Shown here in pieces: positions 54,490 to 60,343 of a stretch of DNA of 64,000 nt; position 1 is the first letter of the stretch, and the number at the start of each line of letters is the position of its first letter. A program made the translations under genes and the position numbers. The stretch lies in NCBI RefSeq assembly GCF_054482525.1, contig NZ_CM137006.1. One strand, 5' to 3'. The notes beneath the pieces are model-generated. The model was not told the origin of the DNA and did not search any database. It saw nothing but the letters and a program-made list of their open reading frames with translations.

Positions 54490-55281
54490 ATGGCAACGCC
54501 AGTGAAGAAGTGGTTATTGCGCGTTGCCCCCTGGTTTTTACCGGTGGGCATCGTGGCGGTGTGGCAACTGGCCTCCTCAGTTGGCTGGCTGTCGACGCGT
54601 ATTTTGCCCTCTCCGGAAGGAGTGGTGACGGCGTTCTGGACGCTCTCCGCCAGCGGCGAATTGTGGCAGCATCTGGCGATCAGCTCCTGGCGGGCGTTGA
54701 TTGGCTTTTCAATTGGCGGATCGCTGGGGTTGATTTTGGGACTGATTAGCGGGCTATCTCGCTGGGGAGAACGGCTGCTGGATACCTCCATTCAGATGTT
54801 GCGTAACGTGCCGCATCTGGCGCTGATCCCGCTGGTGATTTTGTGGTTTGGCATTGATGAATCCGCAAAAATCTTTCTGGTGGCGCTCGGCACGCTATTC
54901 CCCATTTATATCAACACCTGGCACGGCATCCGTAATATCGATCGCGGTCTGGTGGAAATGGCGCGTAGCTATGGATTATCCGGCATCCCGCTGTTTATCC
55001 ATGTGATCCTGCCTGGTGCCCTGCCCTCCATTATGGTCGGCGTGCGTTTTGCGTTGGGCCTGATGTGGCTGACGCTGATTGTTGCCGAAACCATTTCTGC
55101 CAATTCCGGCATTGGTTATCTGGCGATGAATGCGCGGGAGTTTCTGCAAACGGACGTGGTGGTTGTCGCCATTATTCTTTACGCCCTGCTCGGCAAACTT
55201 GCTGACGTCAGCGCGCAGCTGTTAGAGCGCCTCTGGTTGCGCTGGAACCCGGCTTATCATTTGAAGGAGGCCACGGTATGA
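54490..55281 (+). CDS. ssuC: SsuC, alkanesulfonate ABC transporter permease
   Basis: 263-aa membrane ORF with the ABC permease EAA-like loop. Confidence 0.95.
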
Positions 55282-56045
55282 ATACTGCTCGTCTGAACCA
55301 GGGCACACCATTGTTGCTCAATGCAGTAAGCAAACATTACGCGGAAAATATCGTCCTGAACCAACTGGATTTACATATTCCTGCAGGTCAGTTTGTGGCG
55401 GTGGTGGGCCGTAGCGGTGGTGGCAAAAGTACCTTGCTGCGCCTGCTGGCAGGTCTGGAAACGCCAACCGCAGGCGATGTGTTAGCGGGCACCACACCGC
55501 TGGCTGAAATTCAGGAAGACACGCGAATGATGTTTCAGGATGCGCGTCTGCTACCGTGGAAATCGGTGATTGATAACGTTGGGTTAGGCCTTCAAGGTCA
55601 GTGGCGCGATGCCGCGCGTCGGGCGCTGGCTGCGGTAGGACTGGAGAATCGCGCGGGGGAATGGCCTGCCGCACTTTCTGGCGGGCAGAAACAGCGTGTG
55701 GCGCTGGCAAGAGCGTTGATTCATCGACCGGGTTTATTATTGCTTGATGAACCGCTCGGGGCGCTGGACGCCCTGACTCGGCTCGAGATGCAGGATTTGA
55801 TTGTGTCACTTTGGCAGGAGCACGGCTTTACCGTACTGTTGGTGACGCATGATGTGAGCGAAGCGGTAGCAATGGCTGACCGGGTGTTATTAATTGAAGA
55901 GGGAAAAATTGGTCTGGATTTGACAGTGGATATCCCCCGTCCGCGTCGATTAGGGTCGGTGCGATTAGCGGAGCTGGAATCGGAAGTGTTGCAAAGGGTG
56001 ATGCAGCGTGGGCACTCTGAACAACCGATTCGGCGTCATGGGTAA
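55278..56045 (+). CDS. ssuB: SsuB, alkanesulfonate ABC transporter ATP-binding protein
   Basis: 255-aa ORF with Walker [10 protein letters not shown], signature LSGGQKQR and Walker B LLLDEP. Confidence 0.95.
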
Positions 56046-56262
56046 TATGCCGGATGTGGCGCACAAAACCAGCATTTCCAACGGACTTGTGGGCCTGATA
56101 AGACGCGTCAAGCGTCGCATCAGGCAGTTGGACCCGGTTGCCGGATGCGCGTAAACGCCTTATCAGGAAGTTGGGCACGGCTGCCGGATGCGGCGTGAAC
56201 GCCTTATCCAGCCTACAAAACCAGCATTTTCAACGGACTTGTAGGCCTGATAAGACGCGTCA
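56046..56262. repeat. REP cluster (bacterial interspersed mosaic element) with several palindromic units between ssuB and pepN
   Basis: Repeated GCCGGATG... / GCCTGATAAGACGCGTCAAGCGTCGCATCAGGC-type palindromes at about 56049-56065, 56091-56124, 56130-56160, 56180-56215 and 56240-56262. The last unit is interrupted by the IS. Confidence 0.8.
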
Positions 56263-56313
56263 TGAACTGCACCCCAAATGTTGGACATAATCTGACATCT
56301 GAAGGTGCAGTTT

Positions 56314-56835
56314 ATGAAACATTCATTTGAAGTAAAACTTGCCGCTGTAAATCACTACCTGGCTGGTCATGCAGGCATCATTTCTACGGCAAAACTCTTT
56401 CAACTTTCTCACACCAGCCTCTCACACTGGATTAATCTTTTTCTTCTTCACGGTCCTCGGGCACTGGATTGCAGACACAAGCGTAGCTATTCTCCTGAAG
56501 ATAAACTTTGCGTGGTTCTTTATGCTCTCGGGCATTCTGAGTCTCTACCCCGGGTAGCTGCCCGGTTTAACATTCCCAGCCACAACACGGTTAAAAACTG
56601 GATAAAAGGCTACCGCAAATCTGGTAATGAGGCCTTTATCAGGCGCAGGAAGGAGAAAAGCATGACCCGTTCTGATGATACCCATGAAAACGAGGCAAAC
56701 ATGACGCCGGAAGAGATGAAGAATGAGCTGCGTTATCTTCGCGCAGAAAATGCATATCTGAAAGCCATGCAGGAGCATCTCCTGGAAAAAAAGCGCCAGG
56801 AGCTGGAGAAAAAACGAAAGTCATCCGGAGCCTGA
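56314..56835 (+). CDS. IS orfA (transposase N-terminal part, helix-turn-helix plus leucine zipper)
   Basis: MKHSFEVKLAAVNHYLAGHAGIISTAKLFQLSHTSLSHWINLF...; ATG at 56314 with GAAGG 8 nt upstream (track ORF starts at an upstream GTG, 56305). Ends just after an A-rich slippery run. Confidence 0.88.
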   Translation: MKHSFEVKLAAVNHYLAGHAGIISTAKLFQLSHTSLSHWINLFLLHGPRALDCRHKRSYSPEDKLCVVLYALGHSESLPRVAARFNIPSHNTVKNWIKGYRKSGNEAFIRRRKEKSMTRSDDTHENEANMTPEEMKNELRYLRAENAYLKAMQEHLLEKKRQELEKKRKSSGA

Positions 56836-56939
56836 GGTGCGGACACTGCCAGTCTGACCTGTTAAAGGCTGCAGGGCTGGCCAGAAGCACGCTGTACTAC
56901 CAGCTGTCACTGCAGAAGGCTAAGGACAAGTATGCTGAT

Positions 56940-57694
<755 letters not shown>

Positions 57695-57725
57695 GTCAAG
57701 CGTCGCATCCGGCATTTTGGCTCAA
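57695..57725. repeat. Right half of the interrupted REP palindromic unit
   Basis: GTCAAGCGTCGCATCCGGC immediately after the IS right end; together with 56241-56262 it reconstitutes GCCTGATAAGACGCGTCAAGCGTCGCATCCGGC. Confidence 0.7.
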
Positions 57726-57730
57726 AAGTA

Positions 57731-60343
57731 TCAAGCCAGTGCTTTAGTTATCTTCTCGTACAGATCGCCAGAGAGATTTTCCAGCCCTTTCAACTGCTCC
57801 AGCGCCGCGCGCATTTTCTCCTGACGTTTGGCATCGTAACGCTTCAGGCGAATCAGCGGCTCAATCAGGCGCGAAGCCACCTGCGGGTTACGGCTGTTGA
57901 GGTCGGTAAGCATTTCCACCAGGAACTGGTAACCGCTGCCATCTTCGGCATGGAACGCTGCCGGGTTGCTGCCCGCAAACGCGCCAATCAACGAACGAAT
58001 GCGGTTCGGGTTGCTCATGGTAAATGAGCGATGCTGCAACAGACCACGCACCGTCTCCAGCACATTTGCCGCCGGGCTGGTGGCTTGCAGGATAAACCAT
58101 TTATCCATCACCAGACCGTCCTGATGCCACTTGTCGTCGTACTCCTGCATCAGCGCGTCACGGCATGGCAGCTGTGCAGCAACCGCCGCAGAAAGCGCGG
58201 CCAGCGCATCGGTCATATTGTTTGCTTCATGGAACTGCTTGCTCACCAGCACGTCAGCCAGATGCGTTTCACCAAAAGCGAGGAAACGCAGGCAGGCATT
58301 TCGCAGAGTGCGTTTTGCAATATCTTCATGCTCAACACGGTACTCGCTCTGGTAATTCGCGTTGTAAATAGCCAGTAGCTCATCCGCCAGTTCAGTCGCC
58401 AGAGTACGAGTGAGTGCTTCGCGTACTTCAGCAATAGCAATCGGGTCGATGATATCGAACAGTTCTGCCATTTCATTGACGGAAGGCAGCGTCAGGATTT
58501 CTGCCGCCAGTGCCGGATCAATCTTCTCATCAAGCAGTACCGCGCGGAAAGCATCAGCCACATGCACCGGCAGAGACAGCGGCTGCCCTTGCTGATGACG
58601 GGCGACGTTGAGCTTGATGTAGGTTGCCAGCAGGCTTTGCGCCGCATCCCAGCGGGAGAAATCATTACGCGCATGGCGCATCAGGAAGGTCAGTTGCTGA
58701 TCGCTCCACTTATATTCCAGTTTCACTGGCGCAGAGAATTCGCACAGCAGCGCAGGCACCGGCTGAAAGTAGACATTATCAAAGACAAAGGTCTGTTCCG
58801 CCTGGGTGACGTTCAGCACCGAATTCACCGGGTGACCGCCTTTCTGCAACGGGATCACTTTGCCTTCGTTGTCATACAGTTCGATGGCAAACGGAATATG
58901 CAGCGGCTGTTTTTCTGCCTGATCCGGCGTAGCAGGCGTGCGCTGGCTGATGGTCAGGGTGTACTGCTCGGTTTCCGGATTATAGTCGTCTTTGACGGTC
59001 ACAACCGGCGTACCGGACTGGCTGTACCAACGGCGGAAATGAGAGAGATCGACATTCGACGCATCTTCCATCGCCTGAACAAAGTCGTCGCAGGTTGCCG
59101 CGCTGCCATCATGGCGCTCGAAATAGAGCTGCATCCCTTTCTGGAAGTTTTCTTCGCCCAGCAGGGTGTGGATCATGCGAATCACTTCCGCGCCCTTCTC
59201 GTAAACGGTCAGGGTGTAGAAGTTGTTCATCTCAATGACCATATCCGGGCGGATCGGGTGCGCCATCGGGCTGGCGTCTTCCGCAAACTGCAATCCGCGC
59301 ATGGTGCGCACGTTGTTGATACGGTTTACCGCGCGGGAACCAAGGTCAGAGCTGAATTCCTGATCGCGGAAGACGGTTAAACCTTCTTTCAGGCTGAGCT
59401 GGAACCAGTCGCGGCAGGTCACACGGTTACCGGTCCAGTTATGGAAATATTCATGGCCGATAACACGCTCAATATCGAGGTAATCTTTATCGGTGGCGGT
59501 GTCGGTACGGGCCAGCACATATTTGGAGTTAAAGATATTCAGACCTTTATTCTCCATTGCGCCCATATTGAAGAAATCCACCGCGACGATCATATAGATG
59601 TCGAGGTCATACTCCAGGCCGAAGCGTTCTTCATCCCATTTCATGGAGTTTTTCAGCGAGGTCATCGCCCACGGCGCACGATCAAGGTTGCCGCGATCGA
59701 CGTACAGCTCCAGCGCAACTTCGCGACCAGAACGCGTGGTGAAGGTGTCGCGCAGCACGTCGAAGTCGCCTGTCACCAGCGCAAACAGGTAGCACGGTTT
59801 CGGGAACGGGTCCTGCCACTGTACCCAGTGACGTCCGTTTTCCAGTTCGCCTTGCGCAACGCGGTTACCGTTGGAAAGCAGGAAGGGATATTTGGTTTTA
59901 TCGGCAATAATTTTGGTGGTAAAACGCGCCAGCACGTCCGGGCGGTCAAGATAATACGTAATATGGCGGAAACCTTCGGCTTCACACTGAGTGCAAAGCG
60001 CATCGCCTGACTGATAAAGCCCTTCCAGCGCGGTATTCGTCGCCGGGCTAATTTCATTAACGATCTTAAGCGTAAAACGCTCCGGCAAATTACTGATGAC
60101 CAGTGCGCCCTCTTCTTCTTTCCAGGCGGTCCACGGCTCATCATTAATATGAACAGAAACCAGTTTAAGATCTTCGCCATCAAGACGAAGCGGAGCATCT
60201 GATGCACCATGACGGACAGCCTGGCTGACCGCGGTAACGACCGTCTTTTGCGCGTCCAGGTCAAAGGTCAAGTCAATATCAGTAATCTGGTAATCCGGCG
60301 CACGATAATCGTGACGGTATTTGGCTTGTGGCTGTTGAGTCAT
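57731..60343 (-). CDS. pepN: PepN, aminopeptidase N (M1 family zinc metallopeptidase)
   Basis: 870-aa ORF MTQQPQAKYRHDYRAPDYQITDIDLTFDLDAQKT... with GAMEN and HEYFHNWTGN (HExxH) motifs. Confidence 0.97.
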   Translation of the reverse strand: MTQQPQAKYRHDYRAPDYQITDIDLTFDLDAQKTVVTAVSQAVRHGASDAPLRLDGEDLKLVSVHINDEPWTAWKEEEGALVISNLPERFTLKIVNEISPATNTALEGLYQSGDALCTQCEAEGFRHITYYLDRPDVLARFTTKIIADKTKYPFLLSNGNRVAQGELENGRHWVQWQDPFPKPCYLFALVTGDFDVLRDTFTTRSGREVALELYVDRGNLDRAPWAMTSLKNSMKWDEERFGLEYDLDIYMIVAVDFFNMGAMENKGLNIFNSKYVLARTDTATDKDYLDIERVIGHEYFHNWTGNRVTCRDWFQLSLKEGLTVFRDQEFSSDLGSRAVNRINNVRTMRGLQFAEDASPMAHPIRPDMVIEMNNFYTLTVYEKGAEVIRMIHTLLGEENFQKGMQLYFERHDGSAATCDDFVQAMEDASNVDLSHFRRWYSQSGTPVVTVKDDYNPETEQYTLTISQRTPATPDQAEKQPLHIPFAIELYDNEGKVIPLQKGGHPVNSVLNVTQAEQTFVFDNVYFQPVPALLCEFSAPVKLEYKWSDQQLTFLMRHARNDFSRWDAAQSLLATYIKLNVARHQQGQPLSLPVHVADAFRAVLLDEKIDPALAAEILTLPSVNEMAELFDIIDPIAIAEVREALTRTLATELADELLAIYNANYQSEYRVEHEDIAKRTLRNACLRFLAFGETHLADVLVSKQFHEANNMTDALAALSAAVAAQLPCRDALMQEYDDKWHQDGLVMDKWFILQATSPAANVLETVRGLLQHRSFTMSNPNRIRSLIGAFAGSNPAAFHAEDGSGYQFLVEMLTDLNSRNPQVASRLIEPLIRLKRYDAKRQEKMRAALEQLKGLENLSGDLYEKITKALA

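What the first reader, a model, noticed from the sequence alone, without database searches (positions are those of the whole stretch)
56727..56835. Programmed -1 frameshift window in the IS (orfA/orfB overlap with an A-rich slippery run)
orfB is open in the -1 frame from 56727 and overlaps the last 36 codons of orfA. A run of six A followed by C (about 56809-56815, zero-frame codons AAA AAA) sits 6 codons before the orfA stop. This is the standard IS3-family arrangement for making an OrfAB transposase by -1 slippage. The run is a homopolymeric A6 rather than the textbook A-AAA-AAG heptamer, so efficiency and exact slip site are open questions.
Basis: partly seen in the sequence, partly recalled or inferred. 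Interest (0 to 1): 0.3.

Follow-up and report, generated by a model that had tools for sequence, protein, structure and literature searches.

The report
IS1397 transposase frameshift site, mislocated

Summary
The window holds an intact 1432-bp copy of IS1397 (IS3 family) at 56263-57694. It sits in the loop of a REP element between an ABC-ATPase gene and pepN, with a 4-bp GTCA target duplication.

The orfB frame opens at 56727, orfA stops at 56835, and an A6 run followed by C lies at 56809-56815. In the orfA frame this run reads A_AAA_AAG, which is the canonical and most efficient E. coli -1 slippery heptamer.

Four lines of evidence place the slip there:
- NCBI's annotated IS1397 OrfAB proteins carry that junction. 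Only one deposited protein carries the A6C junction.
- The two closest non-E. coli relatives keep the heptamer at the same codons.
- In a three-way comparison, purifying selection switches from the orfA frame to the -1 frame exactly at the heptamer. The peptide APGAGEK, encoded between the two A runs, is invariant, and every substitution there is synonymous in the -1 frame.
- An SD-like AGGAG lies 11 nt upstream, and a predicted -12.4 kcal/mol hairpin starts 4 nt downstream with the A6 run in its loop.

No unusual structure follows the A6 run. No frameshift product was observed here. Verdict: already known, low interest.

The parts
56263..57694 (+). Complete IS1397 copy (1432 bp), IS3 family
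   Evidence: 100% identical over 1432 bp to copies labelled 'IS3-like element IS1397 family transposase' in many E. coli genomes. The ends read TGAACTG...CAGTTCA.
56263..56287 (+). Left terminal inverted repeat (IRL)
   Evidence: Matches the reverse complement of 57670-57694 at 21 of 25 positions.
57670..57694 (-). Right terminal inverted repeat (IRR)
56259..56262 (.). Target-site duplication GTCA, left copy, in the loop of a REP/PU
   Evidence: Removing the IS plus one GTCA gives a 400-nt sequence found at 100% identity, uninterrupted, in E. coli 19KM1831 next to pepN.
57695..57698 (.). Target-site duplication GTCA, right copy
56314..56835 (+). orfA (173 aa, HTH DNA-binding protein; product of unshifted translation)
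   Evidence: The exact protein is in the public collection (P0017, over 1000 contigs). Pfam HTH_28 / HTH_Tnp_1.
56727..57662 (+). orfB reading frame (-1 relative to orfA); rve/DDE catalytic domain
   Evidence: Pfam HTH_21, rve, rve_2.
56771..56775 (+). SD-like AGGAG, 11 nt upstream of the heptamer; candidate 5' stimulator
   Evidence: Read from the sequence. 'tgcaggag' is identical in IS1397, the Pantoea relative and L087. The position falls within the 6-17 nt interval used as the criterion in PMC4066793. Function is inferred.
56770..56784 (+). Small hairpin CAGGAG-CAU-CUCCUG just upstream of the heptamer (contains the SD-like motif)
   Evidence: -8.0 kcal/mol. Five base pairs are kept in the Pantoea relative but not in L087. 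Significance unknown.
56787..56793 (+). Slippery heptamer A_AAA_AAG (orfA-frame codons AAA 56788-90 and AAG 56791-93): the proposed -1 slip site
56797..56834 (+). Predicted 3' hairpin (4 bp, 2x2 internal loop, 5+2 bp; 11-nt loop), starting 4 nt after the heptamer
   Evidence: -12.4 kcal/mol, 0.33 kcal/mol/nt, ranked 52nd of 1394 38-nt windows of the IS. Not significant against shuffles (z = -1.16 for the 107-nt stretch). Prediction only.
56809..56814 (+). It lies in the loop of the predicted hairpin and encodes E-K of the conserved -1-frame peptide APGAGEK.
   Evidence: At best it is a G_AAA_AAA near-heptamer or an A_AAA tetramer.
56940..56942 (+). First canonical start codon (GTG) in the orfB frame
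   Evidence: It lies 49 codons downstream of the slip site. The stretch before it (including LLKAAGLARSTLYYQ) aligns with positions of the IS3 transposase profile that OrfB from this GTG does not cover.

Best explanation
The locus is an intact IS1397. Most ribosomes translating orfA terminate at 56835 and make the 173-aa DNA-binding OrfA. A minority slip back one nucleotide on A_AAA_AAG (56787-56793). The P- and A-site tRNA-Lys re-pair from AAA-AAG to AAA-AAA, the next codon read is GCG (56793-95), and translation continues in the orfB frame to 57662. The result is the 449-aa OrfAB transposase with junction ...LLEKK-APGAGEKTKVIRSL....

The slip is probably helped by pairing of the upstream AGGAG (56771-75) with the 16S rRNA 3' end, and by a hairpin at 56797-56834. 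The A6 run at 56809-56814 is not the main slip site. It is part of the hairpin loop and of the -1-frame coding sequence.

Shown here: anatomy, identity, conservation and the frame-specific switch in constraint. Inferred: that slippage is ribosomal, the roles of the stimulators, and the efficiency.
For: - Identity: 100% match to PGAP-annotated IS1397 copies whose CDS is joined from two pieces and noted 'programmed frameshift'.
- Junction in deposited proteins: re-reading any base from 56786 to 56793 gives P0001 (71 contigs), and re-reading 56794 gives P0032 (465 contigs). Only re-reading within 56809-56814 gives P0016 (1 contig). Of 131 distinct full-length variants fetched, one has the A6C junction.
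- Conservation: the Pantoea sp. SO10 plasmid relative (52.8% aa) and contig L087 keep A_AAA_AAG at the same EKK codons.
- Constraint upstream of the heptamer: variable codons are 8 synonymous / 7 non-synonymous in the orfA frame, against 0 / 16 in the -1 frame.
- Constraint between the heptamer and the second A run: 3 of 3 variable codons are synonymous in the -1 frame (APGAGEK invariant), while 3 of 4 change the amino acid in the orfA frame.
- Family context: 56 of 60 more distant -1-type relatives have an in-frame A_AAA_AAG or A_AAA_AAA in their overlap, followed by a covarying 10-bp stem.
- Fusion product: it matches the IS3 transposase profile NF033516 end to end across the junction (residues 62-442 to profile positions 1-369; 387 bits against a cut-off of 160).
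- Literature: A_AAA_AAG is among the three most efficient heptamers in E. coli, and with A_AAA_AAA it makes up 72% of the heptamer-bearing IS1/IS3 elements surveyed. A_AAA is the weakest active tetramer (PMC4066793).
Against: - No protein or RNA data for this element were available. The primary IS1397 papers (PMC94167, PMC95333, PMC169884) are not held, so I could not confirm experimental mapping of the site.
- NCBI junctions are computational annotations, not measurements.
- The downstream hairpin is not more stable than shuffled sequence. Its base pairs are not conserved in the two relatives, which have different predicted structures.
- The constraint analysis rests on three sequences and few substitutions.
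- The IS3 profile does not discriminate between the two junctions (387.2 against 386.0 bits).
- The A6 run also has a GGAG 6 nt upstream, so low-level slippage there cannot be excluded.
Confidence: 0.85

Rival explanations
1. One reading: the -1 slip happens on the A6 run at 56809-56814 (codons AAA AAA), giving OrfAB with junction ...EKKRQELEKK-TKVIRSL....
For: - The run is real, in frame and inside the overlap.
- An A6 or A5 run is kept at this place in the two nearest relatives.
- A GGAG lies 6 nt upstream.
- One deposited protein (P0016 / MCW7009108.1) was annotated with this junction.
Against: - The motif is G_AAA_AAA, not a true X_XXZ_ZZN heptamer. As an A_AAA tetramer it belongs to the weakest active class in E. 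coli, about 10-fold or more below the good heptamers (PMC4066793).
- The 21 nt upstream of it evolve as -1-frame coding sequence with APGAGEK invariant. That is unexpected if those codons were read in the orfA frame in the transposase.
- No structure beyond the shuffled expectation follows it (z = +0.67).
- A far better motif lies 16 nt upstream.
- The Pantoea relative has only A5G here.
Confidence: 0.05
2. Transcriptional slippage: RNA polymerase adds one extra A while copying the A7 run (56786-56792). A fraction of mRNAs then carry A8 and encode OrfAB in a single frame, with the same protein sequence as ribosomal slippage.
For: - A 7-nt homopolymer is present.
- Transcriptional realignment is a known route to fusion transposases in some IS elements (Baranov 2005, cited in PMC4066793; PMC6211511 title).
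- The product would be identical to P0001, so the annotation cannot distinguish the two routes.
Against: - From established knowledge, not tested here: efficient slippage by E. coli RNA polymerase needs runs of about 9 or more A/T, so A7 gives little.
- The motif is conserved specifically as A6-G in frame in IS1397, the Pantoea relative, L087 and most distant relatives. That is the signature of tRNA-Lys re-pairing rather than of run length.
- SD-like and hairpin elements flank it in the positions expected for ribosomal frameshifting.
Confidence: 0.07
3. No recoding: OrfB is made on its own from GTG 56940 (or by coupling to orfA termination), and OrfA and OrfB act as separate proteins.
For: GTG 56940 is the first canonical start in the orfB frame, with AAGGA 13 nt upstream. 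Separate OrfB products are reported for some IS3-family members (established knowledge, not tested here).
Against: - The 49 -1-frame codons between the heptamer and GTG 56940 are homologous to conserved IS3 transposase sequence. The fusion covers profile positions 1-369, whereas OrfB from the GTG covers only 136-369.
- The -1 frame is under purifying selection from the heptamer onward.
- In the IS3 family the fusion protein carries the transposase activity (PMC5009743).
Confidence: 0.03

Closest known systems
IS1397 (IS3 family), E. coli REP/BIME-specific insertion sequence
   Same: - Identical sequence over 1432 bp, with the same annotated 449-aa frameshifted transposase.
- Insertion in the loop of a REP palindrome with a short duplication. 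This is the behaviour described for IS1397 (PMC1525189).
   Different: Nothing found. This is simply one more copy, at the ssuB-like / pepN intergenic BIME.
IS150 / IS911 / IS3 -1 programmed frameshift signals (A_AAA_AAG plus stimulators)
   Same: The same heptamer and the same orfA/orfB logic: regulator alone or fused transposase. An SD-like element sits upstream as in IS911 and dnaX, and a stem-loop downstream as in IS150 (PMC4066793 and PMC5009743).
   Different: The stimulators in IS1397 are only predicted, and the hairpin is modest (-12.4 kcal/mol, 0.33 kcal/mol/nt, against a mean of 0.45 for 271 IS3 members in PMC4066793). IS3 uses a pseudoknot and IS911 a three-way junction. No pseudoknot was looked for or found here.
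Distant relatives of the same IS3 subgroup in Bacillota and Pseudomonadota (e.g. ISBth167-like; loci L008-L082)
   Same: OrfB is 51-59% identical, there is a -1 overlap, and an in-frame A_AAA_AAG or A_AAA_AAA is present in 56 of 60.
   Different: Their heptamer sits at the ENAYL-KK-L codons and is followed 8 nt later by a conserved, covarying 10-bp stem. In IS1397 those codons read YLKAM (ctg aaa gcc, not slippery) and the heptamer lies 8 codons further downstream at LLEKK. The Pantoea relative and L087 share this arrangement.

Membership tests
IS3 family insertion sequence (IS1397) | Near-identity to the named element | tested here: met
   100% over 1432 bp to copies labelled IS1397 family by PGAP; 1707 E. 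coli genomes hold a copy covering at least 80% of the query.
IS3 family insertion sequence (IS1397) | DDE (rve) transposase with N-terminal HTH; match to the IS3 family profile | tested here: met
   NF033516 at 387 bits against a cut-off of 160. Pfam rve, rve_2, HTH_21 and HTH_28.
IS3 family insertion sequence (IS1397) | Two partly overlapping ORFs, the second in the -1 frame | tested here: met
   orfA 56314-56835; orfB frame 56727-57662; 109-nt overlap.
IS3 family insertion sequence (IS1397) | Imperfect terminal inverted repeats ending 5'-TG...CA-3' and a 3-4 bp target duplication | tested here: met
   IRs match at 21 of 25 positions and read TGAACTG...CAGTTCA. GTCA is duplicated. The empty site was found at 100% identity in another strain.
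IS3 family insertion sequence (IS1397) | IS1397-specific: insertion into the loop of a REP/palindromic unit | tested here: met
   The flanks rebuild GCCTGATAAGACGCGTCAAGCGTCGCATCCGGC, a REP like the intact one at 56093-56126. The property is described in PMC1525189.
Programmed -1 ribosomal frameshift signal (bacterial, IS3 type) | In-frame X_XXZ_ZZN slippery heptamer inside the overlap | tested here: met
   A_AAA_AAG at 56787-56793 in the orfA frame.
Programmed -1 ribosomal frameshift signal (bacterial, IS3 type) | Conservation of the motif, and a change of the constrained reading frame at the motif | tested here: met
   Kept in the 2 closest relatives. The synonymous / non-synonymous pattern switches frame at the heptamer. 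Only three sequences were compared.
Programmed -1 ribosomal frameshift signal (bacterial, IS3 type) | [quoted passage not shown] | tested here: met
   GGAG at 56772-56775, 12 nt before 56788, conserved in all 3 sequences. The stimulatory effect itself was not tested.
Programmed -1 ribosomal frameshift signal (bacterial, IS3 type) | Downstream stimulatory hairpin or pseudoknot starting 4-10 nt after the motif | tested here: inconclusive
   The hairpin at 56797-56834 meets the empirical rules of PMC4066793 (starts at +4, C-G closing pair plus 3 bp, -12.4 kcal/mol). However, z is only -1.16 against shuffles and no covariation is available.
Programmed -1 ribosomal frameshift signal (bacterial, IS3 type) | Trans-frame protein actually produced at a measurable rate | not testable with these tools
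   This needs a reporter assay or proteomics. The primary IS1397 papers are not held.

The most novel reading that the evidence does not exclude
IS1397 and its two nearest relatives have lost the slip site that at least 50 more distant relatives keep at ENAYL-KK-L. They rebuilt one 8 codons downstream, and they retain a second A-run 16 nt further on, inside the stimulatory hairpin loop. That second run might act as a back-up slip site, so the element would make two OrfAB isoforms differing in 7 residues (APGAGEK or RQELEKK). The ratio could depend on hairpin folding.
Probability: 0.08. Interest if true: 0.25.

Novelty: already known. Interest (0 to 1): 0.08.

Why it matters
It matters little beyond correct annotation. 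IS1397 is a described element, and its transposase is routinely annotated as a programmed-frameshift product.

The useful outcome is a correction. The slip site is the canonical A_AAA_AAG at 56787-56793, so there is no unusual homopolymeric-A6 frameshift signal to explain. Any reporter or mass-spectrometry design should target the junction EKK-APGAGEK.

A minor evolutionary point also emerges. Within this IS3 subgroup, the heptamer and the 5' arm of its hairpin have moved 8 codons relative to distant relatives. This shows that the position of the signal within the overlap is free to drift.

Tried and rejected
- G/C polymorphism at 56793. Most deposited proteins read EKK-P-PGAG rather than EKK-A-PGAG. 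I rejected a polymorphism because the DNA is identical, and the difference comes from placing the annotation join at 56794 instead of 56793 or earlier.
- Profile scoring of the two alternative fusion proteins against NF033516. It does not discriminate (387.2 against 386.0 bits).
- The primary IS1397 papers (PMC94167, PMC95333, PMC169884) are not held. Full-text search for IS1397 found no paper dealing with its frameshift.
- The first homology search with the fusion protein returned only near-identical E. coli variants and gave no diversity.
- The representative search found nothing between about 53% and 97% identity. The tblastn search of plasmids found only one useful relative, from Pantoea. 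Covariation support for the IS1397 hairpin could therefore not be obtained.
- Variant ORFs P0174 and P0204 read through both A runs in one frame, with one A missing in each run. They carry further frame errors downstream, so I treated them as probable homopolymer sequencing errors or decayed copies, not as natural fused alleles.
- I did not verify IS150 itself. L088, fetched as a candidate, is another IS3-family element.

Full report
**What is there.** The finding lies inside a complete insertion sequence at window 56263-57694 (1432 bp).
- Its ends are imperfect inverted repeats, TGAACTGCACCCCAAA... and ...TTTGGGGTTCAGTTCA, matching at 21 of 25 positions.
- It is flanked by a 4-bp direct repeat, GTCA.
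- It interrupts the loop of a REP palindrome in a cluster of REPs between an ABC-transporter ATPase gene (55278-56045) and pepN (57731-60343, minus strand).
- Deleting the element plus one GTCA gives a 400-nt sequence that occurs uninterrupted at 100% identity in E. coli strain 19KM1831. This confirms the boundaries and the duplication.
- The 1432 bp are 100% identical to copies in many complete E. coli genomes.
- IS1397 is the IS3-family element known for inserting into REP sequences (PMC1525189).

**Checking the observation.**
- orfA runs 56314-56835.
- The -1 frame is closed by TGA at 56724 and open from 56727 to 57662, so the overlap is 109 nt.
- A6 lies at 56809-56814 with C at 56815. It reads AAA AAA in the orfA frame, six codons before the stop.

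In the orfA frame (…CTG GAA AAA AAG CGC…), positions 56787-56793 are exactly A_AAA_AAG. The statement that the textbook heptamer is absent is therefore wrong.

**Which run is the slip site?**

*Deposited proteins.* I built both possible fusion proteins and looked them up by exact sequence.
- The product of slipping on the A7G run (…LLEKK-APGAGEKTK…) is deposited as IS1397 transposase from 71 contigs.
- The commonest deposited form (465 contigs) differs at one residue, P instead of A at 161. This comes from the same DNA with the annotation join placed one base later, at 56794. It is not a polymorphism.
- The product of slipping on the A6 run (…EKKRQELEKK-TKV…) exists once, on one contig.
- Among 131 distinct full-length variants fetched, one has the A6 junction.
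- These are computational annotations, so they show consensus practice, not proof.

*Relatives.* IS1397 is an isolated lineage, with nothing found between about 53% and 97% protein identity. Two relatives were recovered: an IS on a Pantoea sp. SO10 plasmid (L086, 52.8%) and a metagenome-assembled contig (L087). Both keep A_AAA_AAG at the same E-K-K codons.

*Selective constraint*.
- In the 60 nt upstream of the heptamer, variable codons are 8 synonymous and 7 non-synonymous in the orfA frame, but 0 and 16 in the -1 frame. In L087 the -1 frame even contains stops there.
- In the 21 nt between the heptamer and the second A run, all three variable codons are synonymous in the -1 frame: CCA/CCG, GCT/GCG/GCA, GGA/GGT. 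The peptide APGAGEK is invariant.
- The same substitutions hit second codon positions of the orfA frame and change its amino acids: Q/R, L/R/Q, E/V.
- The functionally constrained frame therefore changes at the heptamer, upstream of the A6 run. This rests on three sequences and few substitutions, but every one of them points the same way.

*Motif quality.* In E. coli, A_AAA_AAG is one of the three most efficient -1 heptamers. Together with A_AAA_AAA it accounts for 72% of the heptamer-bearing IS1/IS3 elements surveyed. The A6 run is G_AAA_AAA in frame, so it offers only an A_AAA tetramer with imperfect P-site re-pairing. A_AAA is the weakest of the six active tetramers, and tetramers peak about 10-fold below the best heptamers (PMC4066793).

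**Flanking elements.**
- *Upstream.* AGGAG at 56771-56775 lies 11 nt before the heptamer. That is inside the 6-17 nt interval in which SD-like sequences have been shown to stimulate -1 frameshifting (criterion quoted from PMC4066793). The octamer tgcaggag is identical in all three relatives.
- *Downstream.* RNA folding gives a hairpin at 56797-56834: CAGG/CCUG, a 2x2 internal loop, then CUGGA(GA)/(UC)UCCGG, with an 11-nt loop. Its energy is -12.4 kcal/mol and it starts 4 nt after the motif. It meets the empirical rules of that paper and ranks 52nd of 1394 38-nt windows of the IS.
- The A6 run sits in the loop of this hairpin, and the orfA stop lies in its 3' strand.
- *Limits.* The 107-nt region is not significantly more stable than shuffles (z = -1.16). 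The two relatives have different predicted structures, so there is no covariation support. I call the hairpin predicted, not shown.

**Is the fusion the functional product?**
- The fused protein aligns with the IS3 transposase profile in one piece across the junction (residues 62-442 to profile positions 1-369; 387 bits against a cut-off of 160).
- OrfB started at the first canonical start, GTG 56940, covers only profile positions 136-369. It would lack the conserved LLKAAGLARSTLYYQ segment.
- In the IS3 family the fusion carries the transposase activity and OrfA alone acts as a regulator (PMC5009743).
- Independent OrfB synthesis cannot be excluded with these tools, but it is not needed and would omit conserved sequence.

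**Wider family context.** A scan of one genome per species returned 80 loci encoding relatives with 51-59% OrfB identity.
- Of 60 with a -1 arrangement, 56 have an in-frame A_AAA_AAG or A_AAA_AAA in the overlap.
- In them the heptamer sits at the codons ENAYL-KK-L. It is followed 8 nt later by a 10-bp stem whose pairs covary: one pair is GC in 14 sequences, AU in 11 and GU in 8.
- In IS1397 the homologous codons read YLKAM (ctg aaa gcc), which is not slippery. The heptamer lies 8 codons downstream at LLEKK, an arrangement shared with the Pantoea relative and L087.
- The signal has therefore moved within the overlap in this small clade. This is a modest evolutionary detail, not a new mechanism.

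**Rivals.**
- *Slippage on the A6 run as the main route:* unlikely (0.05), for the reasons above. A trace contribution cannot be excluded.
- *Transcriptional slippage on A7:* it would give the same protein. From established knowledge, A7 is short for E. coli RNA polymerase, and the conserved A6-G, in-frame form is the signature of tRNA-Lys re-pairing (0.07). Transcript sequencing would settle it.
- *Separate OrfB without recoding:* 0.03.

**Verdict.** This is an ordinary, already annotated programmed -1 frameshift of a known IS. No experiment on this element could be consulted or run, so the mechanism is well supported by anatomy, conservation and family knowledge, but it was not directly observed.

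Noticed in passing
window 56751-56759 (ctg aaa gcc) compared with 56785-56793: In about 50 distant relatives the slippery heptamer sits at the ENAYL-KK-L codons. In IS1397, the Pantoea relative and L087 those codons are not slippery (YLKAM / YLKVM / YLKTL), and the heptamer lies 8 codons downstream. The frameshift signal has been relocated within the overlap in this clade.
   Followed up: partly
window 56093-56262 and 57695-57715: A BIME-like cluster of four REP units lies upstream of the IS (REP-like cores at 56093/56125, 56140, 56183 and 56245). The IS splits the last one in its loop. The uninterrupted site exists at 100% identity in E. coli 19KM1831.
   Followed up: yes
window 57618-57644: A perfect 12-bp inverted repeat, CTCAGTCCGGTA-GAA-TACCGGACTGAG, lies inside the 3' end of orfB (codons LSPVEYRTE), about 25 nt before IRR. 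It is the most stable 38-nt window of the whole IS (about -21.7 kcal/mol). Its role is unknown; it could be a terminator-like or mRNA-stability element, or a coincidence.
   Followed up: no
loci L003, L004, L006, L007 (Pseudomonas asuensis); L043, L046 (P. oryzihabitans / P. rhizoryzae): These relatives encode the transposase as one uninterrupted ORF (…ENAYLKQARSLGSK…), with no frameshift needed. They are natural in-frame orfAB fusions within the same subgroup.
   Followed up: partly
proteins P0001 and P0032 (window 56793 / 56794): RefSeq and GenBank hold two versions of the IS1397 transposase from identical DNA, differing at residue 161 (Ala or Pro). The cause is that the annotation join is placed at 56793 or earlier in one and at 56794 in the other. 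The Pro version, the commoner one, does not correspond to simultaneous-slippage decoding of A_AAA_AAG.
   Followed up: yes
proteins P0174 and P0204 (E. coli-like IS1397 variants, no locus fetched): These are ORFs reading …LLEK-SARSWRK-TKVIQ…, which means one A is missing from each of the two A runs, so orfA runs into orfB without recoding. They carry further frame errors downstream, so they are probably homopolymer sequencing errors or decayed copies.
   Followed up: partly
loci L064, L075 (Pseudomonas relatives): These have no A6R heptamer in the overlap. The homologous place reads CTA AAG GAG, which is only an in-frame A_AAG tetramer, the most efficient tetramer class in E. coli according to PMC4066793.
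   Followed up: no
whole window: AAAAAAG occurs 28 times on both strands, against 16.1 +/- 3.6 expected from dinucleotide shuffles, and no shuffle out of 100 reached 28. Frames and gene contexts of the other 27 sites were not examined.
   Followed up: no
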